Assembly: GCF_037042905.1 (NCBI RefSeq)
Contig: NC_087245.1
Location: forward strand, 16,246,001 to 16,310,000
From: Lytechinus pictus
Lineage: Eukaryota
Length of the DNA stretch: 64,000 nt
Direction: 5' to 3'
The position numbers and the translations under genes were made by a program. Each line of letters starts with the position of its first letter. The first letter of the stretch is position 1. This document shows, piece by piece, positions 2,110 through 55,500 of this stretch. The notes below the pieces were generated by a model that worked only from the letters and a program-made list of their open reading frames with translations, made no database searches and had not been told where the DNA came from.

Positions 2110-5100
2110 GTGAGATTTCTTGTGTGTTCCATGGTGTATCAAGGAAATTCACAGGGCAATAGTTGAAATCATTCCCTCATTCAGCAATCAACCTGGATGC
2201 CAGTATTCTCTGATAGTTCATGAGATCAAACCTCCAATCGAATATTTTTTTCTTTCTTTTTGAATTGTGCACCACTCTGAGTATCGTTTCCTTGAAAGAT
2301 CAAACTGTACTTGTCATTAATGTTGGCTGAATATGATGTCTTGCCTGACATATCTCTTCTCAAGATAAGTACGCAACCATGTAGGTCCAATATGAAAATA
2401 TCAGCTATAATATCTTGATTGAACCGTCGGTTTCTTAATTCATAGGACAAAATTTGATGTTTTCACACCTGCCTGATGAGAAATAAAATTCCTGTTTATG
2501 GTGTGAAAGCCGAGTACTGCTAATGTCATGGGTAGTAAATAAACAACAGACTAGTAGGTTCTGTACAAAAAAAATGTGAGAAATTTCACAGTTATTGTTC
2601 TAAGCTTTTTGAAGTATTTGAAAATCAACTATGAGAATTATTGATGTGAGGCAAGAAGAATGTGCGTCCATTGTAACTGGATGGAGGAGACTTGTATCAG
2701 GCTGATAATCATGAGGACTTTATGTTGATCTACTTGTACTGTACCATGTGAATATATTAAATGATTAAAAAGTAGGGGTATCATGAGGCCTGAGCAAGAT
2801 AATGCAATTCATGGGCATTTTTTCATTTCAGGCAAATTTGAATATGCGTTAAAACTGTAATCCAGTTCACGTACAATATTATTGAATGTTTTTATCTTCA
2901 TGTTTCATCTCATAGAGGCCCCTCATTTTGTGGAGACCTACAAAGATACGGAAGCCACCATTGGTCAGTCGATTCGATTGGAATGCAGTATAGACGGTAT
3001 CCCAGAGCCAGAAGTCATATGGTCTAAAGACGGCAAGGTTATAGAAGATTTTGAGAGATACCAGTTCTACTATGAAGGAGAAGAAGGATTTGCTTTGGAG
3101 ATCAACAACTTTGACAAGGATGATTGTGGGGAGTACACCCTAGAAGCTTCTAATATAGCCGGCAGTGTCTCTCATTCAGCAGAAATCTATGTGACAAGTA
3201 AGTCACTTATTATTTCTGTCTTCATTTTTCTGTTCAATATACTTATGAATTAACCAGTTGCACATCTGGTCTAAACTTAGTAAACCAGTATTAATGTACA
3301 TGTAAGTGCCTAGTGATTGTCTGCTCTCCCTGATCATTCTGGGTTAGATCCCCGAAACGTTCAATTAGCCGAGGCTGCAGTACCTCCCTTAAATGTGCCA
3401 AAACTTCTGGTAGAAACCCGACCTATCTTACCATACATCTTCAAAGAGTTGTAAGCTAGAGTAATATTGTACATTTGTAGGATCAAGGCCACCACTTTGA
3501 ACACGGTTTAAGGGCAAACTGCCCTGGAAATAATTGTCATTAGGATAAGGTGTCCTTTGGGGAAACTTACCCATCTGTGAACTATCCTGAGAAAGAGGTT
3601 TACCCATTGGATTTTTTTTTTCATGTAGGTATATTGTGTTTGGGGGTTGTTAAGTTCTGCCTGAAACATGTATTCACTCTCAAGTCTCATCCCTGTTTTA
3701 CCTTTCTTCTATTCCTTGGTGATTATTAGGTGGACCAGATGGATACAGGAGAGTCTTTATCAAGAAAGATATCATTGTTGAAGATGAATATGAACTCCTA
3801 GCTGAACTGGGAAGGTAAGGCCACCCCCTCAAAAATAATCTTTAAAAACAGACAAAAGTAAACAAACTATAGCTTTTCTATGTGATCTCATTTGATCAAA
3901 TTCTCTTGATAGAGATCACTATAATTGGCCCTATATGAAATGACTTATATTCTACTGTCTTTGAAATCATGAATTATTTAATGTTGGTTATAACACAAGG
4001 ATGGTATGCTCTTTGCTGTTTAATATTGGGCAGGCATGTACAATTTTGCAAACTTATGTAAAGGAACCTTATTTTCACCCCCCCAAATTCACAAATTATT
4101 GTTTATGAAATTTTCCCCCTTTTTCAGAGGAGCTTACGGTGTGGTCCATAAAGGTATCTCCAAGGCTGATGGCAGCGAGTGTGCCATCAAGACAATCCGT
4201 GTCAAGGCTGGTATGTGGGAGGAAGTACGGAATGAGATAGCTGTCATGGGTATCTTGGATCATAAGAGACTCATCAAACTCTTTGATGCCTATGAGACTA
4301 AGAGAGAGGTTGTCATGGCGATGGAAATGTATCCTTTATTAATTTATATGTTTTTAACTTTCAAAGCTTATATTTTTAGAGCATGGTATTAGAGTCGACA
4401 TTATTTTGGAGGTCTGTTGCAGTTATCTCAAGTTCTAAATGAATGCATATGGAGGTATCATCAAAAGAGATATTGGGCGGTATCAGTTTTTGCCTCCCCA
4501 GCAGATCATAATTGGTCAATTAATGATCATGCAATTGTGTTCCATTTTGCCAAATTTTGGCCTATTCCAAGGTTGTAATCGATAACTGCACATCTTTTCT
4601 GTCCGTTCATTTTGATGTCACAAACGAAACAACATTTGACATCACATGCACCACCTACACAAACCAGGCTAGGAAGGATCTTATATAATAAGACTTTGAT
4701 CCAGATGTTCCTAAGATAATCAGTAAGTCACAATTTATTGTGCGATATCTAATTGAGTGAAACATCTTACTATTACAGTGGAAGGAAATTTTTAAAGGCC
4801 AGACTAGTGCAATAGCTTTGTTTTGTAAGCTTGCTCATTAGTCTGTATCTCTTTCTAGGCCATCCAATATTATCTAATTAAGGACGTTCCACAGTTATGT
4901 TTGTGCGCATCATGATCTGCGCATATTTTACACTCTGCGTGCTGACGTCACAATGATGAACTGGTGATTAATCAGCTGTAGGTATTGTGAGCTGATTTTT
5001 CTCCTTACTGTACTAACTGCAGATCCGGTGTGTTATTTTATGAAGCTAATAAACTGGAATTATTCCATAGACCATTTTTGTTTTATTCCTCTTCAATTTC

Positions 5101-8100
5101 AAAATACTTTTCTCTGTAGTGCTGCAAAGTATGATGAATATGACCCCAAGTTTGAATAAATGATAGAGTGGTTCGGAGTTTTTCCTCACAGAGATATAAA
5201 GCTTTTGGCACGTTTTGAGGTGTTTAAAGAAGAACATTTGCTCTAATATGAGTGCTGATAGTTTGAAAACAAGCACATGAACCCATATTTTTTTAATGTT
5301 TGCACCTCTTAGGTATACCTTCCTCTACAACTATGAAAATGACATGGATTTTGAATAAAGTGCAGCAGTTCTTTTTCTTCTTAAGTTTGCTATTGAAATT
5401 TGAAATTTATGAGGTTGAGTATTTGTTATCTTTCCCGCAATTTTTAAGAACTGAGAGTGCTGTTAAACTTAAATGAGCAAACGATTGAAAGCACTATATA
5501 TAGATTATCCATCTTACGGATACAATAATCATATTGCAAAATTTGATGAAATTTTCAAGGGTTTTGACTGAGTAACAGAGCTTTAAACTCATTGTTGTGA
5601 TCTCGTGAGGTCTAAAAATGCTAAATTCTTTTGAATGCGCAATTCTCAAGAACATCCATTTGGGTTAACTTTGAAGCTCTATATAAAAAAATCAAGCACA
5701 TAGACCCATATCATTTTTTGCATATTTAGAATATTCAGGTGCTAAAGTATCTATGTGCAGAGAATGATGAAAATGACATGGATTTTCAATGTTTGGGAGC
5801 AAGACTACGGAACCATTCGCATGTTAGACGGTATTAACAGACTTTTGCTTGTTTTCGGCGTATTTTGGGCTGTTTCAAGCCAACTCAAAATATTTTGGAC
5901 ACTGATAATTTGAAAACGAGCACATGGACCCCATAGTTTAAATGTCTTAACTTCTTCAGAATATATTCCTCTACAGATCTAGAGAGTATGATGAAAATGA
6001 CAAGGAATTTGAATGTTTGGGAGCAGGACTAAGGAACCATTCGTATTTTAGACATTTTAGACGGAACTATTATAGACTTTTGCATGTTTTCGGCGCATTT
6101 AGGCGATTTTCAAGCCAACTCGCAACACTTTGGACACTGATAACTAAAAAACGAGCACATGGACCCCATATTTTTAATATTTAAACGGCTTCAGAATATA
6201 TTCCTCTACAAATTTAGAGATTATGATGAAAATGACATGGATTTTGAATGCTTGGGAGCAAAATTTCGGAACCATTCGCATTATAGATGGTATTATTAGA
6301 CTTTTGCACGTTTTCGGCGCACTTTAGGAGGATTTCAATATTTTCAAGCCAACTTGCAACACTTTGGACACTGATAACTATAATACGAGCACATGGACCC
6401 CATATTTTTAATATTCTAACGCCTTCAGAATATATTCCTCTACAAATCTAGAGAGTATGATGAAAATGACATGGATTTTGAATGTTTGGGAGCAAAACTT
6501 CGGAACCGTTCGCATTTTAGACGGTATTATTAGACTTTTGCACGTTTTCGGCGCATTTTAGGAGGATTTCAATATTTTCAAGCCAACTCGCAACATTTTG
6601 GACACTGATAACTAAAAAACGAGCACATTGACCCCATGTTTCAAATATTTCAACGAATTTAGAATATATTCCTCTACAAATCTAGAGAGAATGATGACAA
6701 TGACATGGATTTTGAATGTTTGGGAGCGAAATATGGGAACCATTCACAATTTAGACGGTATTATTAGACTTTTGCATGATTTTGGCGCATTTATGCGATT
6801 TTCAAGCCAACTCGCAACACTTTGGACACCGATAACTAAAAAAACAAGCACATGGACCCTATATTTTTAATATTTTAATGGCTTTAAAATATATTCCTCT
6901 ACAAATTTAGAGAGTATGAAGAAAATGACATGGATTTTGAATGTTTGGGAGCAAAAGTACGGAACCATTCGCATTTTAGACGGTATTATTAGACTTTGGC
7001 ACGTTTTCGGCGCATTTAGGTGATTTTCAAGCCATTCGCAACAATTTAGACACTGATAACTAAAAAACAAGCACATGGACCCTATATTTTTAATATTTTA
7101 ACGGCTTTAAAATATATTCCTCTACAAATCTAGAGAGTATGATGAAAATAAAATGGATTTTGAATGTTTGGGAGCAAAAGTACGGAACCATTCGCATTTT
7201 AGACGATGTTATTAGACATCTGTACGTTTTCGGCGCATTTTAGGCGATTTTCAAGCCAACTCGCAACACTTTGGACACTGATAACTAAAAAATGAGCACA
7301 TGGACCCTATATTTTTAACTTCCCTACATCTTTCATATACATTCCTCTACAGTTTAGCCGAATTTGATGAAAATGACATGGATTTTGAATAAAGTGCAGC
7401 TTAAACTATACTTTTTTAATTATTGAGTAGATTCACTTCTTTGAAGATTTGTTTTTTTCTTCAAGTTTTTGCACCATTCTTGCCAAATGAGGGCGCTGCT
7501 GACTCCAATTAGATATAGTTTTACCAATTAAAAGACTTTCTCCTACTTTGGTATCTACTAAGTTACACATTCTGAAAGTTTGATGAAGTTTGATGGGATA
7601 TCGAGAGAGTAAAGATGATTTAAACTCATTTGGTGAATTCGTGAGGTCTAAGAGAGGCATAATTCTCATGATTGCGCAGCATTTCATATCATTCAAATAC
7701 GGCAATTTTGAAGTCCCATAGAAAAAAAATAAGCACATGAACCTATATTATTTTTTGCATTTTCATAATGCATAGATACCAAAGTAACTCTCTGCAAAAT
7801 TTGGTGAAAATGACATGGACTTCATTTTAACTGTGGAATGTCCTTAATCTTTTAAAGACTCCTACATTCAATTCACAGGGAACTTGTAATGAATTTTAAT
7901 TCTAGTATTTCTCATTTAATCTCATCTCACTTAATCATTCCTGAATTTCATGAAGTCTAAGTTTATGATCAAATATCAAGGGAAAAAAATGGCTTTGTAT
8001 TTAAGAGTTGAAACTGATCGATAAGTACCACTTATCATTGTCATTGACAGATTTACATGTATACTATTGAATGAGTTAAATAGGAAGAAAGAATAAAATG

Positions 8101-11100
8101 TCACATCTAGGTGTTTGTCAACACAGGAAGGAGGTGCATGTAAGTGGGAAACATTTTTGGACATATATGTGGAGAGAGAGGGGAATAGAGAGAGAAAGAG
8201 ACCGGAGAGAAATTAAGAGAGAGATATCGGAATGATTTTTCCTGGTATCGCATCACAATTTAAAAAAAAATAAAAACTGCTTCACAAATATTATTTTTTG
8301 TAGCAGATTATTTTCATAGAACGGTACAGAACTTTTATTATTGAGAGTTTTTTCTTGTAAATGATGAAAGGAAGTATTAGGCAAAAAAAAAGAAGATCGG
8401 ATTAAATATTTGCACTCTGTAAAGTTATATTGTGTGTCACACAACAATTACCAGTTAAGACTGACAGACTAATTGATAGATAGATGGACAGAGAGAGAGA
8501 GATAGAAAGGTAGGTAGACCGATAGATAGACATACTTATATACTTATAGAAAGACATACAGAAATACTTGTAGACAGATTAGCATATACCGTGTGAGTAA
8601 AAAAAAAAAACCTGACACCTCACAAATCCTCAACTTAAGAAAAAATATGTCATGAACGCATAATCACTATGGCTGGAAAGAGCATCTTTTCCCAAATAAT
8701 TTGATACCATATTTATATTGTATGTCTTCACGTTTGTTTGGATAATCAATAGGTATTCTTTGCAGTGATGTAAATTTTGATTTGCGCCAAGGTAAGGCAT
8801 GACTGCAATGAATGAACCCCAGATGCAAATTATGTCATAATCCTACATGTGTTAGTAAACATATTTGCAAATCCCTTTTCAATGAAATTAAATTAAGAAC
8901 TAATACTGAAAAGTGATCTGGATTCATTAATTGCAGCCATGCCTTACTTTGGCGCAAATCAAAATTTACATCACTGCAAAGAATACCACATACCACATTA
9001 ATCTGGTATCAAATTATTTGGAAGAACATACTCTTTCAGGTCATATACAATAGTTCTGTGTTCATGACATATTTTATCCTTAAATTGGGGATTTGTGAGG
9101 TGTCAATTTTTTTTTTAGTCACACAGTAGTAAGACAGATCAACAGATAAAAAAAACCCTGACAGCCATATCGATAGATGCATGGACAGACAAACAGACAT
9201 ACAAATGAATGAAGAGTAGAGTACAAAGGAACAGGCAAACAGAGAAAAAAAGCGGTAGGCAGAGATGGAAAAGTAGATCACAAAAGTGGAAGACCCAACA
9301 AAAAGGGGGAAGGATTATTCGTCTGTGATTATACTACTTAGCATGCATGAAAAGATATCACTGGATTTTAAGTAGCTTTGTGCAAAGTTTGTGATACCAC
9401 ATTACTCTCTTTGCTCTTGTGAGAGTGTTTGCTACTTAACAATTAGAACATTTGAGTGTGATACGCAATAGAAGCGAAACCTGAATAGGTAAATTTGCTA
9501 CTGATGACATGAGTGTGTGTTTTGTATTGGATCGGGTAGAAGATGAGTCTGTGCTTGATTCTCATTGCTGTTGGAATTACAACTATGTCAGGTTAGTTAC
9601 TAATATATGATATACATTTATCTTTTAATTAACAGATAAAATATTTTTTTTTTCATTGGGTATTATACATGTAACAATAATTACATTATTTGTTTTATAT
9701 ACAGATTCACTTACCCATGTCCCCACCCCATGTGGAGTATTCCAATGTTACTTATTTACTTTGGATTGCCACATAGTTTCAAAATTATATATTTCAATAC
9801 TAATATCACTATTGATATTTTCATTCACCCTTTTGAGATTTTGAGGGGGGGGGGGATGGGCAACATCATGAATTTGTGACAAATTTATAACAGTGTTGTA
9901 CTCTTTATGCTATTTGAAAACCTAGTGATATTTTGTGTGTTCACCTGACTGAATGGAGACATAAATCACTCATTTTAATTATTTTGTTAACTGAACACTG
10001 CAAAGTAAATTGAATATCTCAAACCTCGCTTAACAAAAGAGGAAATATTTCATTCTAATCAGAGTAAATACACATACTGACCTTCCGTTCACAACTTGTT
10101 TATATTTCTATTGTCTATTATCTCTTTAAAGCTAACCTTCCCTTGTGTTCCTGTATGTACCAACTTCTGTTTGGTAGTTACAATCTTAATCTGTTTTTAT
10201 ATGGTGATAATTATGGTATTATCTAAAAGCATTCAGTCCCATGTAACCTTATTTTTCAGTTTTGTATTTTTTGGTCGGTGCAAAATATAATTTGATAAAG
10301 CTTTTGACATATGAACGAATCAACCAACATTTTGATGAATGACTGACCACCTGACTGAATGCACTATGGATGCATAGATAAATGCTTAGGTGAATGACAG
10401 AATGAACCAATGAGCAAACAAATGAATGAATGAATGAATGGATGAATGGATGGATGGATGAATGAATGAATGAATGAATGAATGAATGAATGAATGAGTG
10501 AGTGAGTGAGTGAGTGAGTGAGTGAGTGAGTGAGTGAGTGAGTGAGTGAGTGAGTGAGTGAGTGAGTGAGTGAGTGAGTGAGTGAGTGAGTGAGTGAGTG
10601 AGTGAGTGAGTGAGTGAGTGAGTGAGTGAATGAATGAATGAATGAATGAATGAATGAATGAATGAATGAATGAATGAATGAATGAATGAATGAATGAATG
10701 AATGAATGAATGAATGAATGAATGAATGGATGGATGGATAGATGGATGGATGGATAAGTGAATGATTGAATGAAAGTATGATAAATAAGATAATTGATTG
10801 ATTGATTAATTGATTATCAAATAAGCCAGCAACATTAAATGAATATCTGAGTGAATGATAAATGATAATTCCCTATGCTATGTATAAAGTAAGCAAATGA
10901 ACGAATATACAAACCTAATTGCTATGAATATGCTTAAATAAAAAGCCAACCAGTAGCTGGAAAGATTGTACTAATCACTGGTGAATACCTCAATCTTCAT
11001 GAAATTTGTAGACTGAACTGAAAACCAATGTTTGATCTCAAAGTGAGTGATATGCCTATCAAATGGCCTTGTTAAACAAATGTTATCTGCTGTAGGTCAC

Positions 11101-14100
11101 AGCAACCAGGCTGTAATTGAGCAACCTAGATTATTTAAACTAAGTCAATCATTAATACAACCATTACTGGCTCCATTTCAGGAGGAAGTATAGGAACGTG
11201 GCATTCATGGTAAGTGGAGGAAATAATATGATTTTGATTCTATTTTATTTATTGATAAATTGTGAAATAATGTGTACAGCTATTTGTATTCTTTATCTGT
11301 AGGCCATATCTCTGCTGTTAAGTGTTTGCTTGGATTATGATTTTATTTACTGATGTATGTATGATCAAATATTGTGTATATTCTAGATGAGTGGATTTGA
11401 TGTTTAGAGGTGCATTGAACTGTTTTATGCAGGATATATATGTGAATATCAGTCAAGTGGATTATTGTTATGCTGTTTGGTAGTATACCCACTTACTACT
11501 TCCTCACTTTTATTCTGACAATCATTATTAGTGTCTCCTCCCAAAGTTCCTTGCACTCATGCTATGTTTCTTATTATATTAAAAAATACATGTACATTTA
11601 CTCCCATTCTCTTCTCTTTCTCTCTCCCTGTCCCTACATCTAGTTCTACCCCCCCCCCTCGTGCACTTATAATGTATCTGTTTGTGTTTTACTCTTTCCC
11701 TTTGTAAGTTGCTTTTTTGTAATCTCCCTCTCTTTCTCTCTTGCTTGCTGGCTTGTTGCTCTCTCCTCTCTCTCTCTCTCTCGCTTATTTCATCCCAGTC
11801 TTCTTTTTCTGCCTCCCCCTTTTTTATTCTCTCTGTCTGTCTCCCCCTCTTTCATTTGTTCACCTTCTACATAATTGTAATATATGTTTATGAATTTGTA
11901 TCAGTTTCTCTTTCTACCCATGTTTACACAGCTATTTTCACAGTGTACTATTTCCAAGGTAAATTTTCCTTGACCAAATCAGTTGATAAATCTATAGTCT
12001 GGTACTTCTGGGGCTGTTTATATCAAAACCAAAATTATTTTGTTTTTGCATACACACATCTCCTGTATTACTTTCCAAGCCGAATCCAATCAGTATATCA
12101 TTCAATATATCAACCACGGCACATTACATGTCAGATGTTTGTGCCATCAATTAAATCTTTCTTTGTTTTAGTACTCCAGCCGGTTTTCCTGTTGTTGTTT
12201 TAACACTCCACTTCTCGCATGACACCAACCTTTGGTTTTATGACAAATGATGCATAGGTAATGAGATACCTATTCATGAGTGGATGTACTGTAAGTGCAA
12301 TTCATTTACAGTAGGTGTGGACCTTTGCATTGGTTTACATGGTACTGAGGCTAACATTTCTATCACATCAATTGTAGGAGGTTTTGTCAAAGGAGTTTTA
12401 CAGTCATTGGATATATCTCTATAAGGTTTGTCCATGATTCCATTTTATCATTAATGCTAATTTATCATGGGCATTTCAAAAACAAATACTGGGTATACAT
12501 TGAATAATCATTCGTTTTTGTTTTGAAAGCAGATCGCTTATGCAATGTGTAGTACCAAACTGGCATTGGAATTGGCAAATCAAGATCCTGCTTTGAGTTA
12601 TTATTAACAGATAAAAATTCAACCATCCATGTTGTTAACACTTGAGCAAAGGTCATCCACATGTATGGTAATAATAAGTTCATAGATCAATACATAAAGA
12701 TATATGCTTTTCCAGATTCATAGTTCCTACAGTTTTAAAAGCTGACTGTTTTCTCACTTGGATTAATATTGACCATATTTCTTAACAGCCTGTGTGCTGA
12801 ATCAGTATTGTTGCTGCTTGTTCTTTTCATAGTTTCTGGACTCCTACTTTTTCTTACCGCACCAATAATTATCAATTATAATTGTTCATCTTAGCAAAGA
12901 ACTACAGCTAATTATTAATATCTCTGGTTTAGGATTGAATGAGGAATATATTCATTGCAATTGTTGATTTTAATCATGCAAACATGCATTTTTTATAGTC
13001 TTTGTTTATGCTTTATTTTTTCTAAATGTCAATATAACCTGATATGGGAGTAAAGTACATGTATTGAAAAAAAACTTATCATGGTTAAATTTTGTAACTA
13101 TAAGTTGCATTGTATAAAACTACGTTATTACAATGTTCTCATATCCTAGGAATTAAACTTTTATGCCTTTTCATGTAAAGACATTGCTATGGCACTTTCA
13201 TCCCTCCATAAATTGAAACAGGCATAGTGCAAATGATGCACAGGACAAAAAAAAATTATATACTGTAGAACTATTATTTTAGGAATGTTGATATGCAAAA
13301 ATACTTCCCCCCCGTCATGTTTGCTTACTCACCTTTAATGAATATTTGAAAGTTTGGATGCAGAAAGGCAGTATAACTTCCAAGTCTTAAAATAACTTCC
13401 TCGTTCTACTAACAGTTAAGGGGAACAGGAAACCTGTAGGTAGGAAGTTATTTGGTCTATGTGAGGAAACTCATTTTTAGTTCTGTTTCTGTTTGTTTCT
13501 GTTTGTGGTAACTCCCGTAGGAACTCGGCAGGACAGCATTTTTTGCTGGTGAACGCCAAGCTGGTATATAACCAATTACTTTGGAAACATTTTACGTCTA
13601 GGTTAATCAGTCATAGTGGCTGACGTAATAGACGACAGATATCACTCTTGGGCCTTTTTATCAAAGTGGAGACAATGGCAGAGTTGGGATTCGAACTCAC
13701 AACCTTGCGATTATGAGTCCAATGCTCTAACCACTGGACCACACGACCCGTATCAGTTCCTGATAACTATTCTAGAAAATCATCCCAGGGAGAGCTTTCT
13801 AATTCTACAAGACAAAAGTTCTGTCATGCCCTTTACTACAATTATTTTAACCCATTAAAAAAATTTTTTTTTGATCTCTAATATCTTCTTTATGTTTTGT
13901 AAACACTTTGAGAGCAGAATGATTTTTTCTATATTGTAAAGCACTTAGGGCATGTTCGTATGGAAAAGTGCTGTATGAATGCTAAAATGTATATATGTAA
14001 TGTAAGTAGCAAATTGATATGTTCAATCTCTTTGATCGAATTTCCTGCAGGTATCACACAATAGTCTGTAACTGTTGGATTGTAATCAACAATTATACAC

Positions 14101-17100
14101 CTTATATATTTTCAGTATTATTTTCTTTCCTTTCCATAGTGTGGTCAATAGTACCAGTTTTTTAATCCATTGTTTGTGTAATGGTAAAAGCTCTTTCTAA
14201 TCACAATTTATAATCTTTTGTGAAAGTTTTTTTGTTCATACAAAATCTATTTCTTTGAATCATTTGAATGTCCATGTTACTTAAATTTGGAATGTTAGAT
14301 ACACCTGTCTTTAATTAATGCAAGTGTGTTCTTTCCAGCAATAAAGTAAGGATTATAAAAATCATCTCTTGGATTTCATATTCCTTGACGTTTTACTAAC
14401 GTTTAGAGTAACAGGAGGAGAGTTGTTTGAACGTATCGTCCAGAGGGATTCCTTTTCGGAGAGTGAAGCTGTAGGTTTCCTGAAGCAGCTTATAGATGGC
14501 CTCATCTACATGCACGATAGGAATATCGTCCATTTAGATCTTAAAGTAAGTCAGAATTTCAAATTTTACATGGGGGGGGGGTGTTTTGTCACGTTTTTTG
14601 GTCTCAATTGGTTCTGCTTGGGCAATTCCATAAAATTTGTACGTCCGACCCCCTATATGAGGGACCTTCATGATTTTTTTTCTCTGATTTCTTGTTCGTT
14701 TGACCGTCTGTAATGTTCTCTAATTGACCATGACTTGGTCAGTTTACAAAGTGAAGTATGGCTTGAAAAAAATGGGGGTCAGATGTACAAAAAGGTTGAT
14801 CATTTTATGGTATTGCCCGTTTATAATCATAAAAATTTGACTTTTTTGGTACAAAAGGGGAATGATGTTTTTTATATATATATACATAACTCTTAAAAGC
14901 TGGTATGGGAATAAACATAAAGCCTCTATTAAGCACATCTATGTATTAGGAGCTCTTGTAGCACAGTAGTTTTAATGGTATGGGTTAATATATCCCACTT
15001 CTGCCACATGTACATGTAATATGCAGTAGGTTGTTTCACTTATCAACATAATGATGGAGTGGACACATGACTTTGTAAAGTGGTGATGTATTTCAGAGTT
15101 CATTTTGGAACATTAGACAAACCATTGTGGCATGCGCACAAGCATGTGTTAATTTTAATACGATGACCAGTGGAATGTACTTATTGGAGAGTTTCTGGAT
15201 TTTATGTAATATTTTTATGGCTTGTATGTTCTTTTTTCAATGTGGAATAGGGTTAGCTTTAATCAAATCTATTCAAATACCACCCAATGCCTTTATATTT
15301 TGTTTCCCCTCTCACCAGCCCGAGAACATTCTCCTAGTGGCACCAGACTCTGATGACATCAAACTAATTGATTTTGGTTTAGCAGCTGTGTTGAAGGAAG
15401 GGGAAGAGGTTAGATGCAAGTTCGGTACCCCAGAGTTTGTGGCTCCAGAAGTTGTCAATAAGAATCCGGTATCCACAGCAGCAGATGTTTGGGGTGTAGG
15501 TGTCATTGCATATATTCTGTAAGTATTCAAGCGAAGTTTGATTAGTGTTAATGCATTTGCTCTTTGTTTCTTGTATTTAACTGTTCTTGTAATTTCTCTT
15601 GCTTTTCCATTTTCCCTATCTTTAGAAAAACACATATATCCTTGTCTTACCTCTTCCTTTAAATCAGCTGTATGCTGTTTGCTCCTCAAGCTCTTTTTTT
15701 TAATTACCACTCTATAGTGACCCCCCCCCCCCCATGACACACATAGCCTAACTTACTTTTCTCTACACTTTTGTGTTCATGAATCTTTATCATCAGGCTA
15801 TTTTTTGTTTAACCACACTCATGCAAATGGGATAAACTAGCCTTTTTTTTTCATTAATATTGGCCCTGACTCTCTTTCTTTTAAACATTTGCATCAATAA
15901 AATCAATGTCGAGTAAAACATACACAATGGCTACAAATTGTGACCAATCTCAATTAAGTTGAGATGGATCTGAATTTTTAATCAATTGCAACATTTCATT
16001 GGTTATGACCCAGGTAGAAACCCAGAAAAATTCAAGTTCAGTATCACAAAGATTGAACAATTTAATGTCTATTTTCTATTCCAAATACAATCAAGGAATT
16101 GCAAAACAAAATCAGATTTTTCTTCCTATACTTTCTGAGTCATGGGAGCTGTTTCATAAATTGAGAACATCTTTAAAAACAACTGAAATCTGAAAAAACA
16201 TGATAATTTTTGGCACATTAGCTAATGTTGCATTGTGCAAATGCTGATTAAAGTACATTGTATAAACTCTAAACAGACTTTTTATTGCAAACCCCTAGAG
16301 ATATTTAAGCTTGCTGCATGCTATTTACTACATGTAGCTAGCGACTAGTGGGTCGATCGCGTAATAAGCAATTGCAAGCTAGTGAACAGTACGTGCTTGC
16401 TAAAAGATAGCTTAATTGTTTCTCGGCATGCCTATTACAATCTTACTAAAGCTATTCGCTTGCTAGTCACTAGCTAGCTGCTAGCTAGTTGTAGCTTGAC
16501 ATTTTGTGAGGTAAGTAATTAATGATCCATATTTTAGATAAAATAACTTGAAATAATACTTCAGTTAACATTTGGATACCTCATAGTTTAATCATTTGTA
16601 AGTTGTTAGTATCTCAGGCAAAGAGAGGGTTGGATGCAGTTGCGAAAATAGAATTAATTGTTCCAAGTATATTTGATTTCCCAGGCTCAAACTGATTTAT
16701 TGTTGTTCAAGTTGTTGTAAATGTCATTGTTTTCACCCATTTTCTCCCAGATGTTTTTGACGCCCCCATATAAATCCATATTTATGTACAAATTTGTTAT
16801 TCATTGATGAAAAAATATTACTTTTTTTCTATTTTTTTTAAAGTTCTACCAGTATATATTGTGAGTACTCCTAAACATAGAAATACTTGTCATATATTTT
16901 TGTATAGTGTTGCTCTTGAAATCTGAAGTACGAGATGACTCAATTCAAGGCGATCAAAAATAATTTCTACTGATACACATGAACTCTGCATATTTTTATA
17001 TATATTCTTTGAAAAGATTAAACTAGGCAAATTCAATTAATCACAATGAGCAGTGATGCCCATGGAAGGTCCGGTAAAATCTAGGTGAATTATTATCTTA

Positions 17101-29100: not shown

Positions 29101-32100
29101 AAGGACTAATACGTTGAAAGACATTGTTAAATAATACACAAAAGTTTGATCAAAAGTGCTTTAAAAACAAGTAGTTAAAACGACTGGGGTAAATTAAAAT
29201 CATAAATACATATAAATGTAATATTCAAGTCAGAAGTTACTGTGATACGGTTTACGACTACACTGATACAGTATCTTTTTTTTTTAATGAGTATAATTCA
29301 CAAAGCTAACCCTTTTATTCATACTTTCTTAGTTGTTTTAAGAGTGATATTTTTAGTACAGAGGGACAGGAGCCACAGAACCCCTCTTTCAAGGACCTAA
29401 CCATAATCAATGCCTATTTTCATAGCTGTGCCTGAGGCTCCATCTCGTCCTAAGATCCCACTGGTGTCGGCCCACGAAGCATTCGTCTCCTGGAAGATGA
29501 ACCACCCCCCTAAGAAGGATGATCTAGAGGGTTATCTACTACAATGTAGAAAAGCAGGTAAGGTTATTAATCTATCACGGGGTGGGTGCCATATTGGGCA
29601 AGGGGTTGACAGCTCCATCCTGTATTTTTGACTAGCGATTAGCCCTGACAAGACGATAGATTTATTGCAAGAGAAGGGCTGGGCAGCCCGGAATTAACCA
29701 GAAAAATACAAGCAGAAATCCTGATTACATTCCTCCACAGCATTTTACAGGATTTTATTTAAGTTTCTTCCTAAAGAGAATTATAACAATGTTAGCAATA
29801 TAGAATACAAAATATGGCATGGATTATATGGATGGTCATACATTTCTAATGCTATTTCTAATACCTCTTGTGCTCTTTTCCTGATGTTTTAATGCTAAAT
29901 GAAAACCATTAAAGTTAACATTTCAACATAATTATTATTATTATTATTTGTTTGGCGTCACATGTGCCTGGGAGGCGAAAAGCGAACTGAATCACTATGA
30001 CCCGCAGGTCTCTCCTGATATAACTGATTGGGGGAGTGCAGGTGGACCACTACACCGGGGTTTCCCCCTACTCTTATACGAATAGTGACTCTTCTCTTCT
30101 CTACACGGGACCTCCATTAACGTCCTATCCGTTAATGGAGTTTATAACGAGTTAACACATTCTCCTCTTTCTCTCTTTTTCAGGTGATAAACAGTGGCTT
30201 GTTGTATCCAATGTAATCAAAGATTGCAACTTTCATGTGAAATCTCTGAGCCCCGAGAATGAGTATCGTTTCCGAGTGGCCTGCGGCACCCCTCATGGAT
30301 GCGGTCCTTTCAGCAAGTCTTCTGTGCAATTTAAAACACTCCCGGAAGGTAATGATAGGAGGAAGAAATTGAATATGAAGATTGTGTCTGGTGATGATGA
30401 TGATGACATTGATGATGATGATGATGTTGATGACGATGACGATGATAATGATGTCGTTGATAATGGTGGTGGTAAAGAGGAGGGGAAGAAAAGTAAGGTG
30501 ATGGTGACGATGATGATTATCATCATGAATAAGGAGAAGAGGAAGAGGAAAAACAAGAACAAGGAGAAGAGCACGAAGAAGAAGGGAGGGGAGGGTGAGG
30601 CGAATAAAAAGAAGAGGAAGTAAATTGAAAGATATACGTATGATTCTACGATAGCACACTTATTAGTAATCGGTATATGTGGCTGACTAGCAACTGTCTG
30701 ATTTTGACGTCAAACATGAATGGGGTAAAGAGACGTAATATTTCGTGAAACAATAGCAAACAAACCAACCCCTTATAAAACATTTACTTTTCATTCACAG
30801 GAGCTGATGCCTTGAACATGGAATCCATCACAAAGTTACAGCACTCGAGAACGAGATCGTTGTCGAGAGAGAGGCATAACTCCCGTGACGAGGTCCTGTC
30901 CGAGCTCATTGATGATGAGGATCTTGGTCCTTTGGACTTGTCTCTCAAATCATCCGTGATGCCTCAGAAGATTTATGAGATGCAGGAGGAAATTGGAAGG
31001 TAATAGCATACCGTTCAACTGCCTTACTGATCAACACGATCCGGGTCGATCAATTTATCTGTTTTCCTGATCTATATACATGTAGCTCAGCAACGTGATA
31101 TGGGTCACTATACCTTGATCCATACCAGTCTGCCTTGATTTGGATTTTCAGCAGTATTTTGGCTATGTTCAAAACGCTCAGAAGCCGAGCAAAGTTGATC
31201 AGTGAAGACCAACCGTCATCAAGGCAGGTTGACCATGTTGACCACGATCATGTTGTGATGCTAAATCATCCAGGCCCGACGTGCATTTGACCTAGGGCTT
31301 GATCGCATTGACAAATAGGCAGTGGACTCATATACATCTTTTTTGTTAAGATTTGTCGTGTAGCAGACCGACAAATTGTGTTACAGCAGAAGTAGGGATA
31401 AAAATGAACAGTATTTAAGTTAGCCTGCAAGCAAATATAATCTGGGATGGGGTATATGCTTAAAAGTTGACAGATCGAAGACAAAATGTAAACTGTATAG
31501 TATTTCGGAAGTGTATGGTCAAAGTTGAATTTTATGAAGAGATATTTGAAAATGGTAATAACGAAAAATGAAAAAAAAAAGTGTATTCGCGCTGAAAGGA
31601 CTGGTCTCATGACATTTCAAATAATTTGCGAATTTCTGATAATTTCTGGGTCAGATCTCTGCCTATCTGTGTAACGTCAGGCTTTATTCCTGGTGGGTGT
31701 TTCATAAAGCTGTTCGTAAGATACAAATGACTTTACGCACGACTGGTGATCCTTTCTTGTGCTTTGTGACATATAGCCCTATGTAATTGATTTTGACCTA
31801 AGAACATGTTCCATTTCCATTTTTTTCTTCATTTTTTCATTAAAGTCGTGCGTAACTTTACGAACAGCTTTTTGAAACACCCACCTGCTCATTTGTAACC
31901 CAGAACAGATTGTGACTTCAACTGACTGATTTCCAGGTCAATCTGACCAGTTTTCTTGGAAAGTGTATGAGAAACACTGAATTATTGTTGATTCATTTCA
32001 GAGGAAGATATTCGGTGGTGATGAGGTGCCGGAAGGTAGCAACCTGCAAGGAATATGCTGTCAAGATCCTAGCACACAACAAAAAGACGCAAGATAAATG

Positions 32101-32387
32101 TCTGGCAGAGTATGAGCTTCTGAGGGAACTATCCCACCCCCACATCCTACAGCTCCGAGAAGCTTTCCTAACGAACAGGCACGTCATGTTGGTCACTGAG
32201 CGCTACTACGGAGGAACAGTGCTGAAGTATCTGACCAAGGAAGATACATACACCGAGTCTACAGTGGTCAGAATAGTTGCCCAGGTGAGCCCCCACCCCC
32301 CTCTTTGATTAAAAAAGGTATGGCGTATAAAATGCTAAGAACCAATCAAAACCCCCCAAACCAAAATGTGCAATATGCCCCCCCCCC

Positions 32388-49500: not shown

Positions 49501-52500
49501 CTCATTTCTCTCTCTCTCTTCTTCTTCTCTCTCCCTCCTCCCCTTTGCTTATTTCTCTCTTTCTCAAACTTTTATTGATGAGATATATCTTTTAATTGGA
49601 GATAAGTTTTGACGTAGAATACTGTAATTACGTTTTTATTCATTTGCTTTGTTATATTTGTATATTCTACTTCATGAATTTTTGTAAATTGACCCTTTCA
49701 GCTTGTGCTGCTGGTCAATTTTTATGTGCATATATACCAATAAATAAAAAAATAAAAATAAACAAGAAGAACAAATTGCATCCATTTCTAATATAGAATT
49801 CAAGAGTACGCTATGGTTGTGTAGGCCTATTTGGATTGCAAAAGTACTACCGTACTTATATATTTCATGTGACAAATAAAATCATAAGTTAGTCCTTCTC
49901 TTAAAAAATAAGCATACTTACTCCTTTTCTTCTTGCAGCAGGTTCTCAATGAATTTCTTTGCAAGATCTGAAATTTCGTCGAAGCACTCGTCATCGAAAT
50001 CCCATTCAACTTTCAGGATATTACTCATCGTCTCTCCCTCATTATCACCCATGAACGGTGAAAATCCACTCAATCTGTAGTCATGGTAATGAGAACAATT
50101 ATCATTATGTTAATATATGGTGACGTAGTGGCATGGCTGTATGCAATTTTTTTTCCTGCGACGAATAATGAAAATTTCGAACAAACTCGAAAGCGAGCGA
50201 GCTTGTAATGATCATGGAAGCATTGTTGTATTTTCTAAACTGAAATCGTAGTATTTCGTTCATACTATGATGAATTTTGTGATTTTTTTTCAGTAAAAAA
50301 GATATTAATTATCTAAATTTCGGGGGAGGGGGGACAACTGCCATCCTGCCACCCCTCCCCCCCCCCCCCCCGCTGGGTGCGGCAATGCCTAGTGGGACAC
50401 AGTTTAAAAACGGTTTTAACATATGATCAAAACTTAAATTGATGTGTATGTCTGAACAAGCAAATAAATTTATGTGATGATTTTATAGAACATAATTTCA
50501 TTGGCTGAGACCCAGAGAATATTTTTCTACACAGAATCTGATTTAAGAGATACGCAAAAACTGACGATCATGTCAACGTGATGCAAACATTAAAATCTAC
50601 GCATATGAAGAAAGCCAACACCGTGAAAAGTGAGAAGAAGGTTCAATCATTTTGTGAATGTGACATAGACAAAAAAGTTACAATTTTTTCACAAATATAT
50701 TTCCAAATTCTAAATGATTTGTCATTTCGACTGTGAACAATAGTCGTCAGAGAATTTAGACAGCTTCACAAACCAAATTATTATCTACTCACAAGATATA
50801 ACAGATGACACCCACACTCCACATGTCTGTACCGTAAGCGACATCATCATATGAAACCACTTCCGGGGCAAGGAATTCCGGTGTTCCACATGATACCTGT
50901 AGTCCTTTAGTATATTTCTGGGCAAGACCGAAGTCGATGATTTTGATTTTGTTGCTGTTTTTTCTTACACAAAGGATATTCTCGGGCTGTAAAGGAAAGT
51001 TTTAAATACTGTTAAACATGTGAATCGTGACATCTTACCTACCGCATTTTCACGAAAAGTGGTAATAAGATAATAATATAATAATAATGATGATAATAAT
51101 ACTAATGATGATAATAACAATAATAATGATAATAATGATACTAATGATAATAATAACAATAACAATAATAATGATAATAATGATACTAATGATAATAATA
51201 ATAATAATAATAACAATAATAATGATACTAATGATAATAATAATAATAACAATAATAATAATAATATAAATTTTATTTACAGAGATTAGCGGCGTCAACT
51301 CTTATGATATGTTCTTCCAGCGGGTCCTGCATAACAATATATTTTTGAATGTATTTTTAATGTGTTTTTATGCTATATTACCTGGATTTTTATGAGATTG
51401 TGGAAAATAAATAAATCTAATCTAAATCTAATATGTTTTTAGTATCTTTCTTCTTTCGAATACGTCGAGCACCTGACAAGAATACAAATGGTCCATTTTA
51501 AAGTCTTTGGTATAACTCGGCTCGGGATTGAACCAAGGACCTCCCCGTTTATGAGTCGGACACTCTACCAGTGAGCCAACATGTCAGGTAATGAATGCAG
51601 TCTTCTCATTCTTTGATATTTTTTTCTTTTCGAATAGACCTTTAAACAATAGTTTTGCAGTTTGCAAAGATATTCCTGATTAAAAAATTGATTGTAAAAA
51701 TGACTACATCATGGTTTCCAGAGATTCCATCCAGTAAAAATGACGACTGCGTCACTTTAAATGTGTGCTTAACTTCTTTCTTAGGCATTACGAATACTTA
51801 CCTTCATATCTAGATGTAGAACTTTCTTTTCATGCATAAACTTGACTCCTTCACATATTTGCCTCATTAGGAAAACAACTACAGCCTCCGTCAATTCAAA
51901 TTCCTCGTCAACTACGCGATCGAATAATTCTCCTCCTGAAACACTGAGGTGAGACACGAAATATAAAGAAAATATGTGTATGCATTCCAGTTCATTAATG
52001 ATTAATCTACTTCGCTGATTACATACCTTCTCTGGTGTGTGAATGAATATTCAAAATTGCCATGGTAAGCTATATATTAGTTTTAACAATAACGTGAAAC
52101 GAATTTGCATACATCTTATCTTAACATTAAAATAATATTTTACTCTGCCACATAAATACATGAAGTTGAATCTATACAGCCTTAATGTCTTGGACTAGAA
52201 ACCTGCCATTTGATTAAAATAGAAACATAAGTACATTCTAATCACAATAATTATACCCTGGTCAAATGTCTAGAGAGTGGCATAAAATATGAACTAACGT
52301 GGCCTTTCTATTTGAAATTGTCAGAATGACTGCAGTCACACCAACGAATTCGGCTCCATACACACCGCTGTTATGTCATAGGAAATAATGTATAACAGCT
52401 GTGGTCGGTCTGAGGTCGATTTCATTAGTCTAAAAACTGTGGCGTAAGACTCACAATTCGAGAATCATAACCATGTTCGGTCCGCTTGCGAATGCATCGT

Positions 52501-55500
52501 AAAGTTGGAGTAATTTGGGATGCTGGAGAATCATCATAATTTCAATTTCATGTTCCACCTATGGACGAAAAAATATATATACATAGTGTAAATTGACGAG
52601 ATTATTATTGTACAAGGAATACGATGTGCGAAAGATTGGGTCCATCGTAATTATAGGAAATCTGTAATCTCCGAATGGTTTAGTCCATTAACACGAAGAT
52701 TTGTGGATGGAAATAATAGCATCGACAGGCGAATTTACGAATAGCGCGCGTAATCGCGTAACTCAACCTTTCATAAAATGTTTTTAATTCAGGAAGTGGT
52801 ATGCCTCTGACCCTATTATTAGTAAAGGGTTGTGTTGGTGAAAGATTTTTGTTTATCCTCCAAGTTGATAAATATGTCCAATTAAAAATTCTAAAAAAAA
52901 TTGTCGTTGGTCAGCAATGAAAATTATACAACGGAGTAAAAAGTCCACATAAAGTTAAAAATAAGCACATTGAAATAAAATTAGTTGGGAGAAATCAATA
53001 TCGCTGCTCAAACCAAGCAAGGTATCAGCGTCAATAAAACAAATATATAAAAATAAAGTTTTGTACATTCATTCGTAGATTAATTGTTATATTTTCTGAA
53101 TAGGATTAGTTTTTCATATACATGGAAAAGCCTGTTTCGTCTCAGTAATAAAATCTAATCCATATCAAAATCATTTGAATTTCATTTACCTCTTTCTTGT
53201 CTTCTGGTTTTTCAGCTTTAATGAATTTCGCTGCCCAAATCTTTTTCGTCTTCTTTTCCACGCATTTATTTACAGTACCGAATTTTCCTCTGCGGATAAA
53301 AACAACGAAAAAAAAATGTATATGTATAGATCTCAAAGGGTGAAAGAAATATCATGCGTGCACGCAGTCAAATTTCTTTACACATTCTAAATTGAATTAT
53401 GTCGATTTAAAATTATATTTTTCTCCCCTTAAATCCTGTTCGTTGTTTTTTCATCAAACCTGAACGGTAAGACGAAGACCTGGTAATAATGTTTATTTCG
53501 ATGAAATGCAAAGAATAAATCGGTCCATCATACTAACCAGTCTCTACATGTTTGAGTTATTCATACTTTTTAATCCATGTTTTCTCCCAAACATCAACGA
53601 AGTTAGTGACACTTCTAATCAAACCTATATTTTTCTTCATTCTTCCTTCTATGTATTTAATAACAGTGTGTGACATACTGATTTTATTATGTAAAGTATC
53701 TAAGATACATGATGAGCAAATTAAACAAACGGCAAATACCTACTTTCCCAATTCCTCTCTGATTTCATACGAATCTTTTACATTCTTAGCTTGAACTTTC
53801 ACGTCCCTGGGCTCGAATGCTGCTTCATCTATTGAGGAATGGGAGAGATAAACAACACTGTCAGCATGCTGAAAGCAAGTCAAGTATTGATCTGTTCACT
53901 GTTGACTTTGATTACATGTATGTCCGTTATTTTGGAAAGCTTTTGGAAACACAACGATTGTATGCAATTCTGTTGTACAACAACAGCAACAATAACAATG
54001 TTAAATCCCCAGAAAGGAAAAGTCGAGATAAAGCGAGCTTCAAATCGGATACAACTCCCGGGGGCCGTTTCATAAAGCTGTTCGTAAGTTAAGAGCGACT
54101 TTAAGAGTGACTAGTGATCCTTTCACACTCGCTAACACATCGCCAATGAATATTTTGGTGTATACCATTTACCAAAGAAAGGATCACCAGTCGTTCTTAA
54201 AGTCGCTCTTAACTTACGAACAGCTTTATGAAACACCCACCTGGGCGGAGATAAAATAAAAAGTCTTGACCACTAAGTTCCTCATCACTTCATTTCTATT
54301 TGATTTCGGGAGATATTCATCATTTAGACTAAATTTTATATTTCCATAAACTCCATAGTTGATGGATTTTCAATTACATTCTCCATGCTGGAGTCTCCAT
54401 TAGGACAAGGCTTCCTTGAGCTACGCTATACGATCGACTTCAGGTTTCGATGGTAACATGACTGTCTTCGTGGGTGATCACTTTTCTACATCCAACGGTC
54501 GTTACTATTTAATGTAATGTAATATTTGAAACAATAAAACTTATGATTAAACCAAAAGGTACGGTATTTTAATCAAGAGTGGGATGGAATAGCGTGCATT
54601 CTCAGTACTGGTGCGATTGGAGAGAATATTCTTGAAGATTAATTAGTCTTTGACGAAATAAGACCTATTCTGACACCGAGAAAAAGCGTCGTACAATCTA
54701 TCGGTCCGAGGGGGGGGGGGGGAACTCTACGCTTCGCTACAAATGCCAGTACAGCCATTACAAGTCCAGTGCAGAGTGATACAATCAAATGCGAGAATTT
54801 TCTTAGGCTAGTGACTTATGATCTCTCCCAGCATATAATTCACCAATTACACCGGCCATTTCGCCTTGTCTTCTGTTACTTTTATGTATATATTTCTTGT
54901 AATTCCCGCTCAGAAAAAAAGTAAAAACCTAGTTTTTGCACTGCAACGCAGAATCCTTTCAAGAACTTAGAACGTCTATTCCCGAATGCCCTTCATGACA
55001 AAAAGCAACCAAGAAGTCTTTGTCGAAATTTGGTGAATCAAAACAGCAGTTTCATTCTGAGCTCTGGACAAATGACGTATATGAAATTTTTTAGTGAGCT
55101 CAGAAACTTAGGGCGAAATTACTGTTCCGGTTCACCAATTTTCGACAAAGACCTCCCAGCTGTCATTTGACGGGCATTTTCAGTACATTTACTCTATTCT
55201 TGAATTCATCGTTCGCCGTGGAAGCAAACACTCCCTAATGTCAGACTGCGCAACCATTAGTGCAGGACATGCATACAGCGTACCCTCTCTCATCAATTTA
55301 TTTTCCATTCAAATCCCAAAGATTGCTGCTCGTAATTAAACATAGGCCCTCTCGCAAATGAAGGCTTCGAAAAGATCCTTGGATATAATTACATGAATAA
55401 CAGTGAAGGTCAGCAAAGCACGCAATGAAAATTCTAAAGAATATCTCTTTCTACTGCTGCTATCCTGCATGAGCTGAGTAAGTTTTAACTTTGAATTATA

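What the first reader, a model, noticed from the sequence alone, without database searches (positions are those of the whole stretch)
51944..52454. Three states of one intron position in one window: U12, U2 and absent
Seen: kinase 1 has the U12 intron after ME+2 nt (GAA AT|A GTA ACA GGA GGA GAG). The minus-strand MLCK has an intron at the identical codon and phase (GAA TT|T GTT TCA GGA GGA GAA) but with a U2 donor GTGAGT, a pyrimidine-rich acceptor and no TCCTTRAC branch. Kinase 2 (LVTERYYGG) has no intron there. Known: U12-to-U2 conversion and loss are the usual directions of change. Inference: an ancestral minor intron was kept, converted and lost in three paralogous domains.
Basis: partly seen in the sequence, partly recalled or inferred. 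Interest (0 to 1): 0.7.

Follow-up and report, generated by a model that had tools for sequence, protein, structure and literature searches.

The report
Ancient minor intron site in kinases
At one codon shared by a large family of calcium-regulated kinases, this sea urchin's obscurin/SPEG-like gene has a rare minor-class (U12) intron, as do human SPEG and a soil fungus's kinase, while eleven sister kinases have an ordinary intron there and one has none, which likely records an intron older than animals that was converted several times.

Summary
The SPEG/obscurin-like kinase 1 has a 10,078-nt GT-AG U12-type intron (4329-14406) in phase 2 of the codon after the hinge Glu. The MLCK has a 511-nt U2 intron at the same codon and phase (52454-51944; RNA contigs join it). 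Kinase 2 has none.

The site is much wider than three domains. In this genome 12 CaMK-group kinase domains have an intron there: 1 U12 and 11 U2. Human SPEG has a listed U12 intron at the same codon, and OBSCN probably does too. A metagenome scan found a full U12 intron at this site in a glomeromycete CaMK (L089). The two U12 bearers are not one clade (AU p=0.00025).

Best reading: a U12 intron older than the animal-fungus split, converted about three or more times. The conversion is probably not MLCK-specific, and kinase 2 probably lost an intron that was already U2. Unweighted parsimony prefers two U2-to-U12 gains, so that rival stays open. This is a good new example of a known process.

The parts
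4128..4328 (+). SPEG/obscurin-like kinase 1 exon ending at the hinge Glu plus 2 nt (…VMAME + AT)
4329..14406 (+). U12-type GT-AG intron, phase 2, 10,078 nt; donor GTATCCTTT
14381..14389 (+). U12-type branch site TTCCTTGAC, A 19 nt from the 3' end; complementary to the GUAAGGAA of this genome's U12 snRNA with the A bulged (pairing read by eye)
14407..14545 (+). kinase 1 exon after the site (A + VTGGELF…HLDLK)
32002..32284 (+). kinase 2 exon that spans the site without an intron (site would lie between 32202 and 32203, LVTERYYGG)
52455..52558 (-). MLCK exon ending at the hinge Glu plus 2 nt (…MVMILE + TT)
51944..52454 (-). U2-type intron, phase 2, 511 nt; donor GTGAGT, pyrimidine tract 13 of 17, no U12 branch motif
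51802..51943 (-). MLCK exon after the site (T + VSGGELF…HLDMK)

Best explanation
One intron position, phase 2 of the codon after the kinase hinge Glu/Asp, is U12-type in the obscurin/SPEG-like kinase 1, U2-type in MLCK and ten other paralogs and empty in kinase 2, and it likely descends from a single U12 intron in a CaMK-group kinase older than the animal-fungus split. Shown: the three states, 1 U12 and 11 U2 among 12 domains of this genome, U12 at the same codon in human SPEG and in a glomeromycete CaMK. Inferred: after gene duplications the intron switched to U2 at least about three times (animal CaMKI, the stem of the DAPK/DRAK/Trio/MLCK/titin group, and further branches depending on the root), by point changes of the donor from GTATCC to GTRAGT and replacement of the strict branch site by a pyrimidine tract. 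The exon cannot supply the AG that U2 donors favour, because the interrupted codon encodes a hydrophobic hinge residue; this may be why 9 of 11 converted donors are perfect GTRAGT. Inferred: kinase 2 lost the intron, probably after conversion and perhaps by cDNA recombination, since it also lacks the next shared intron (after HLDLK) but keeps the two flanking ones. Inferred: kinase 1 is still spliced by U11/U12.
For: All 12 junctions translate as xx[E/D]-X-X-X-[G/D]G in the same phase. Human SPEG: donor GCT|GTATCCTGG and branch TTCTCCTTGATC (PMC6717393 suppl. file 1); the oligo printed in PMC7571691 shows that branch, then AG|C TGC ACA GAG GAG, with c.5038 as the first base of E1680, so the exon starts at the third base of codon 1676, i.e. 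phase 2 after E-L. Human and mouse OBSCN donors GCT|GTATCC and ACT|GTATCC fit GAR CT|. A zebrafish spega minor intron is listed as responsive in an rnpc3 mutant. L089: GAA CT|GTATCCTTC … ATCCTTAAT … AG|T GCG ACA GGG GGT; its exon is 91-94% identical to Funneliformis, Glomus and Rhizophagus Cmk2-like proteins. Kinase 1 plus fungal CaMKs as one clade is rejected (AU p=0.00025), so U12 sits at this site in two distant paralogs. Neighbouring intron positions (after HLDLK, after YIL) are shared by kinase 1, MLCK and microbial L077, so the positions are inherited as a set. Conversion is held to run almost only from minor to major (passages of PMC10639083, PMC7367187, PMC2831892). The base before the donor is T in 9 of 12, the U12 GT-AG bias, though the protein constrains this.
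Against: Unweighted parsimony needs only 2 changes with a U2 ancestor, against a median of 3 conversions (range 1-8 over 1000 bootstrap trees) plus the origin for a U12 ancestor. Only one non-animal U12 case was found, on a single 1001-nt metagenome contig, by a scan designed to find U12. The other 4 of 5 kinase hits in that scan had U2 donors, which implies many hundreds of unseen U2 copies in the collection (inference from about 0.4% chance for the motif). None of the 11 U2 paralogs keeps an exact U12 branch or donor (best 8/9 in DRAK). MYLK, DAPK, KALRN, TRIO, TTN, STK17, CAMK1/2, MAPKAPK and PHKG are absent from the human/mouse list, so no animal paralog besides OBSCN/SPEG shows U12. Deep branches of the tree are weak (10 of 26 forks under 80; 5 rows under half filled). 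The kinase-1 acceptor was not seen in RNA.
Confidence: 0.78

Rival explanations
1. The ancestral intron was U2; it switched to U12 twice independently, in the obscurin/SPEG kinase 1 lineage and in a fungal CaMK lineage.
For: Fewest changes on the tree (2). 11 of 12 paralogs here and 4 of 5 metagenome kinases are U2. PMC11347168 argues that minor-like introns can be intermediates in both directions, and PMC2831892 reports one U2-to-U12 case.
Against: It needs two events of a kind documented about once, at the same codon. The major-to-minor candidates described in PMC11347168 keep A-2G-1 at the donor, which no domain here has.
Confidence: 0.14
2. The positions coincide by parallel insertion and are not one intron: a U12 intron and U2 introns entered the same codon separately.
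For: About 40 other kinase domains read in this genome (counted by eye) lack an intron at this codon, and several have one a few codons away, so the hinge region does gain introns. A TESK/LIMK-like exon (L016/L027) has an acceptor in the same register.
Against: The site (xT|x) is not a MAG|R proto-splice site. The bearers form a related set (CaMKI, CaMKII, MAPKAPK2, DMT group) and share other intron positions.
Confidence: 0.06
3. The kinase-1 intron only looks U12 and is spliced by the major spliceosome (it has a U2-like TACTAAC near the 3' end), or the true acceptor lies elsewhere in the 10-kb intron.
For: TACTAAC lies between the branch site and the AG; two other TCCTTRAY occur inside the intron at 7841 and 11967; the acceptor was not covered by the RNA laid.
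Against: Donor 9/9 and branch 9/9 to U12 consensus, only 3/6 to the U2 donor; annotated proteins read through this junction; a zebrafish spega minor intron responds to rnpc3 loss.
Confidence: 0.02

Closest known systems
U12 introns of vertebrate SPEG and OBSCN (MIDB list, PMC6717393; zebrafish spega in PMC11347168)
   Same: GT-AG U12 type, same codon and phase in kinase 1 (shown for human SPEG from two papers; inferred for OBSCN from the donor's exon bases)
   Different: Here in an echinoderm and 10 kb long against 0.7-1.3 kb in mammals; those lists do not relate it to the U2 introns of paralogous kinases
U12-to-U2 conversion and intron loss (Burge 1998, recalled and cited in the papers read; PMC2831892, PMC7367187, PMC10639083)
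   Same: Same three outcomes at one position; GT-AG subtype, which converts most often
   Different: Those surveys compare orthologs between species; this case runs across at least 12 paralogous domains within one genome and back to a fungal paralog
Intron positions shared between ancient paralogs (PMC9120149)
   Same: One position inherited through old duplications
   Different: The main text has no occurrence of 'kinase' or 'CAMK'; its supplements were not seen
Drosophila CG3294/ZRSR2 U2-to-U12 twintron (PMC2831892)
   Same: The precedent for the rival reading
   Different: Arose by activation of cryptic U12 sites; here the U12 and U2 introns use exactly the same junction

Membership tests
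U12-type intron (kinase 1, 4329-14406) | Donor RTATCCTTT | tested here: met
   GTATCCTTT 9/9; +4 to +9 complementary to the 5' end of this genome's U11, read by eye
U12-type intron (kinase 1, 4329-14406) | Branch TTCCTTRAY close to the 3' end | tested here: met
   TTCCTTGAC, A at -19
U12-type intron (kinase 1, 4329-14406) | Donor is used in RNA | tested here: met
   contigs of X14 and X24 leave the genome at 4328; the runs are RNA by guess or unlabelled
U12-type intron (kinase 1, 4329-14406) | Acceptor at 14406 is used in RNA | tested here: inconclusive
   not in the stretch laid; supported by NCBI proteins P0001, P0003
U12-type intron (kinase 1, 4329-14406) | Splicing depends on the minor spliceosome | not testable with these tools
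   U11 and U12 genes present; a zebrafish spega minor intron is responsive
U2-type intron (MLCK, 52454-51944) | GTRAGT donor, pyrimidine tract, no U12 branch; spliced | tested here: met
Obscurin/SPEG/UNC-89 tandem-kinase family (plus-strand gene) | Ig/Fn3 domains with two kinases in tandem; nearest named proteins | tested here: met
   exon 91-100% identical to proteins named SPEG-like or obscurin-like; Ig and Fn3-like exons between the kinases
MLCK family (minus-strand gene) | Nearest named proteins and tree position | tested here: met
   MYLK4 best PDB hit, E 2.7e-22 against 4.8e-14 for DAPK3; 429-aa 'MLCK smooth muscle-like' proteins; clade 94/90
U12-to-U2 conversion series | Same codon and phase in all members | tested here: met
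   12 of 12 junctions in this genome and 5 of 5 metagenome kinases (the L076 donor was mis-indexed by one base and is read)
U12-to-U2 conversion series | U12 state in an outgroup | tested here: met
   L089, one contig only
U12-to-U2 conversion series | Direction shown by dense sampling on a resolved tree | tested here: inconclusive
   2 unweighted changes against a median of 3 conversions; deep forks weak

The most novel reading that the evidence does not exclude
The CaMK-group ancestor had an ordinary U2 intron here, and obscurin/SPEG kinase 1 (and separately a fungal CaMK) turned it into a U12 intron at exactly the same junction: a clean major-to-minor conversion, kept from sea urchin to human, of a kind reported about once. 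It is the reading with the fewest steps on my tree.
Probability: 0.14. Interest if true: 0.75.

Novelty: new member of a known kind. Interest (0 to 1): 0.42.

Why it matters
It gives one position with many replicate histories: a dozen paralogs per animal genome, each traceable across species, with U12 alive in two distant branches. That makes the direction and rate of intron class switching testable at a single site, which ortholog-only surveys miss. It also suggests that many U2 introns of well-known kinases (CaMKI, CaMKII, DAPK, MLCK, MAPKAPK2) began as minor introns, which bears on how many minor introns early eukaryotes had. The process itself is established and the vertebrate SPEG/OBSCN U12 intron is already catalogued.

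Tried and rejected
Offset positions: rejected.

Another U12 copy of the site in this genome. A branch-plus-GG pattern gave 87 matches against 38 in the reversed control; by eye only kinase 1 looked like a kinase exon, and the others were not translated. A donor pattern gave 148 matches; 100 were listed and 47 were translated (30 supplied, 17 fetched), none with a kinase-like upstream exon; 48 were not listed, and the pattern would not match kinase 1 itself.

PhK-gamma, CASK, CaMKIV, PKD and CHK2 were not recognised among the hits, so the census is incomplete. The TESK/LIMK-like locus L027 has an acceptor in register, but no donor was found; it is left out of all counts.

Control scan of prokaryote genomes: 27 matches, 0 of 27 with an in-register U12 donor within 400 nt, none kinase-like by eye. 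Viral contigs held no relative of the fungal kinase. No listed run is on record as RNA.

OBSCN and SPEG are not among the 'younger MIG' gain candidates in the supplements of PMC6865273. Table S8 of PMC11347168 has columns for both genes (ids recalled), but only its header could be seen, so invertebrate states published there are unknown to me. The supplement of PMC10639083 had no hit for six terms.

Literature searches for this shared site found nothing relevant: searches returned 0 papers; some searches returned listings on other topics. No earlier scan finding matched.

Tree rows: three of the fungal proteins were dropped before the second tree (32 to 29 rows), and misassigned columns of the MK2 and CaMKII rows were blanked.

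Full report
What the window holds. The plus strand carries the 3' part of a tandem-kinase gene whose kinase-1 exon is 91-100% identical to sea urchin proteins named SPEG-like or obscurin-like. The minus strand carries an MLCK. The window lies at G000:C1:16246001-16310000.

The observation. Kinase 1 has an intron from 4329 to 14406: GAA AT|GTATCCTTT … TTCCTTGAC … AG|A GTA ACA GGA GGA GAG. Donor and branch both match the U12 consensus at 9 of 9 positions (consensus recalled), and the joint chance in this window is about 7e-7. The genome has U12 and U11 snRNA genes whose recognition sequences are complementary to these sites (read by eye). Contigs from 2 of 4 runs leave the genome at 4328. The acceptor was not in the stretch laid, but NCBI proteins read MAMEIVTGGELF. 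The MLCK intron is 52454-51944, GAA TT|GTGAGT … CAG|T GTT TCA GGA GGA, with no U12 motif, and RNA-type contigs join it. Kinase 2 reads GAG CGC TAC TAC GGA GGA without a break. All three states are real, at the same codon and phase.

The site across this genome. Searches with kinase exons and a fungal kinase, followed by fetching the flanks, gave 12 domains with an intron at this codon and both splice sites readable: kinase 1, the window MLCK, two more MLCK-like (L021, L022), two twitchin/titin-like (L020, L028), DRAK (L023), DAPK (L025), Trio (L029), CaMKI (L024/L060), CaMKII (L026) and MAPKAPK2 (L135/L201). These family names are mine, from recalled motifs and tree position, not from a call. 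One is U12; 11 are U2, 9 of them with a perfect GTRAGT. Acceptors were paired with donors by locus and protein alignment, not by RNA. About 40 other kinase domains (counted by eye) lack an intron at this codon. The census is not complete.

Vertebrates. In the supplements of PMC6717393 (rows found by search; main text not read), human and mouse SPEG and OBSCN are minor-intron genes with donors GCT|GTATCC or ACT|GTATCC. MYLK, DAPK, KALRN, TRIO, TTN, STK17, CAMK1/2, PHKG and MAPKAPK do not occur in the list. A repair oligo printed in PMC7571691 (passages seen) contains the listed SPEG branch site followed by AG|C TGC ACA GAG GAG, and c.5038 is the first base of E1680. The exon therefore starts at the third base of codon 1676, so the human intron is phase 2 after E-L, the same site; the human hinge is one residue shorter after it. 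For OBSCN the position is inferred from the donor only. A zebrafish spega minor intron is listed as responsive in an rnpc3 mutant (PMC11347168 supplement row); I did not check its position.

An outgroup. One scan of metagenome contigs for a U12 branch motif before a GGELF[D/E] exon gave 21 matches. Five are kinase genes with an intron at the site; 16 show no kinase match. L089 has a complete U12 intron: GAA CT|GTATCCTTC … ATCCTTAAT … AG|T GCG ACA GGG GGT. Its exon is 91-94% identical to glomeromycete Cmk2-like proteins. L070 (MAPKAPK2-like), L073 (DAPK-like), L076 (MLCK-like) and L077 (a GC-rich microbial eukaryote, not identified) have U2 donors at the same site. The same pattern in prokaryote genomes gave 27 matches, none with an in-register U12 donor. 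The scan was built to find U12, and four chance-like hits with U2 donors imply a large unseen pool of U2 copies; many organisms in such collections lack the minor spliceosome (own knowledge), so no frequency can be drawn.

Tree. A 29-row kinase tree (LG+C20; an LG+G4 tree of 32 rows gave the same main groups) has a firm DAPK/DRAK/Trio/MLCK/titin/obscurin clade (100/99). Kinase 1 branches first within it in 654 of 1000 bootstrap trees, and kinase 2 joins Trio in 944. Fungal CaMKs go with animal CaMKI (90/88). Kinase 1 with the fungal CaMKs as one clade is rejected (AU p=0.00025); kinase 1 with kinase 2 is never seen in bootstraps but is not rejected (p=0.076). Unweighted parsimony needs 2 changes. 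A single U12 origin needs a median of 3 conversions below the common ancestor of the two U12 bearers (range 1-8), and within the DMT group 1 conversion in 654 trees and 4-5 in 295. Deep forks are weak and five rows are under half filled.

How it most likely arose. Shown: one position, three states, U12 in two distant paralogs. Inferred: the intron was U12 in a CaMK-group kinase before animals and fungi split, and it converted to U2 several times after duplications. This rests on the accepted view that conversion runs almost only from minor to major (passages of PMC10639083, PMC7367187, PMC2831892); two reverse changes at one codon are less likely than three forward ones. The interrupted codon encodes a hydrophobic hinge residue, so no domain has AG before the donor and 9 of 12 end in T. 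That fits the -1U bias of GT-AG U12 introns and not the A-2G-1 mark proposed for major-to-minor candidates, but the protein constraint makes this weak evidence. The MLCK state was probably inherited from an older conversion. Kinase 2 keeps the shared introns in the G-loop and before LSG, lacks those at the hinge and after HLDLK, and has two of its own; loss of adjacent introns would fit cDNA recombination, probably of an already converted intron.

Comparison with what is known. Conversion and loss of U12 introns are established, and the vertebrate SPEG/OBSCN intron is catalogued. I found no paper linking it to U2 introns in paralogous kinases or to a fungal U12 intron (searches; the library lacks most subscription papers). 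PMC9120149 treats introns shared between ancient paralogs but does not mention kinases in its main text (passages; supplements not seen). PMC6865273 (passages, section 16, supplement search) does not list these genes as gain candidates. PMC7957886 (passages) notes that kinase 1 domains of obscurin and SPEG are closer to each other than to kinase 2. Table S8 of PMC11347168 could be seen only in its header and may already hold invertebrate states for the orthologs.

Verdict. It is a new member of a known kind, useful as a many-replicate test site for the direction of intron class switching. Interest 0.42. The reverse reading (major-to-minor, probability about 0.14) would deserve about 0.75.

Noticed in passing
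G000:C1 14.28, 16.25, 16.30, 17.10, 17.19, 19.34 and 31.05 Mb (L029, window, L021, L022, L020, L028): Seven genes of the Trio/obscurin/MLCK/twitchin-titin group lie on one contig, five within about 3 Mb, and the SPEG-like and MLCK genes are tail to tail; this suggests an old cluster of local duplicates.
   Followed up: no
L151/L178 (G000:C10 about 3.787 Mb, -) and L154/L179 (C10 about 0.738 Mb, +): A PDK1-like exon occurs twice on C10, each followed by a U12-type donor (phase 1, four codons before the hinge): a different U12 site in another kinase; the duplicate may be real or an assembly artefact.
   Followed up: no
window 4329-14406: The U12 intron is 10 kb long and holds a tandem array of about 250-nt units (about 5650-7400), a GAAT/GAGT microsatellite (about 10420-10780) and two decoy TCCTTRAY motifs at 7841 and 11967.
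   Followed up: partly
window 14394-14400: A U2-like TACTAAC lies between the U12 branch site and the acceptor AG of kinase 1, followed by a tandem AGAG.
   Followed up: no
L023 acceptor (DRAK); L076 and L077 acceptors: Branch-like motifs at 8 of 9 in U2-donor introns: TTCCTTTAT in DRAK (A at -8), and motifs at -20 with weak pyrimidine tracts in L076 and L077. They may be relics of U12; the last two were selected by the search pattern.
   Followed up: partly
L028 acceptor (G000:C1 about 31.047 Mb, -): A U12-donor-like GTATCCTTTT sits 16 nt before the U2 acceptor; probably chance within the pyrimidine tract.
   Followed up: no
window 22124-23050 (+) and 20453-20791 (+): A 309-codon open stretch ending in a hydrophobic segment, absent from NCBI isoform P0001, after the exon that follows kinase 1: possibly an alternative terminal exon giving a membrane-anchored, kinase-1-only isoform.
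   Followed up: no
window 48110-48922 (+): A reverse-transcriptase-like open frame of a non-LTR element type (recognised from recalled motifs) inside an MLCK intron.
   Followed up: no
L016/L027 (G000:C15 about 18.616 Mb, +): A TESK/LIMK-like kinase has an acceptor in the same register as the site (AG|T ATA TCC GGT GGG); its donor was not found.
   Followed up: partly
window about 51580-51510 (-): A tRNA-like or SINE-like piece inside the MLCK intron after HLDMK.
   Followed up: no
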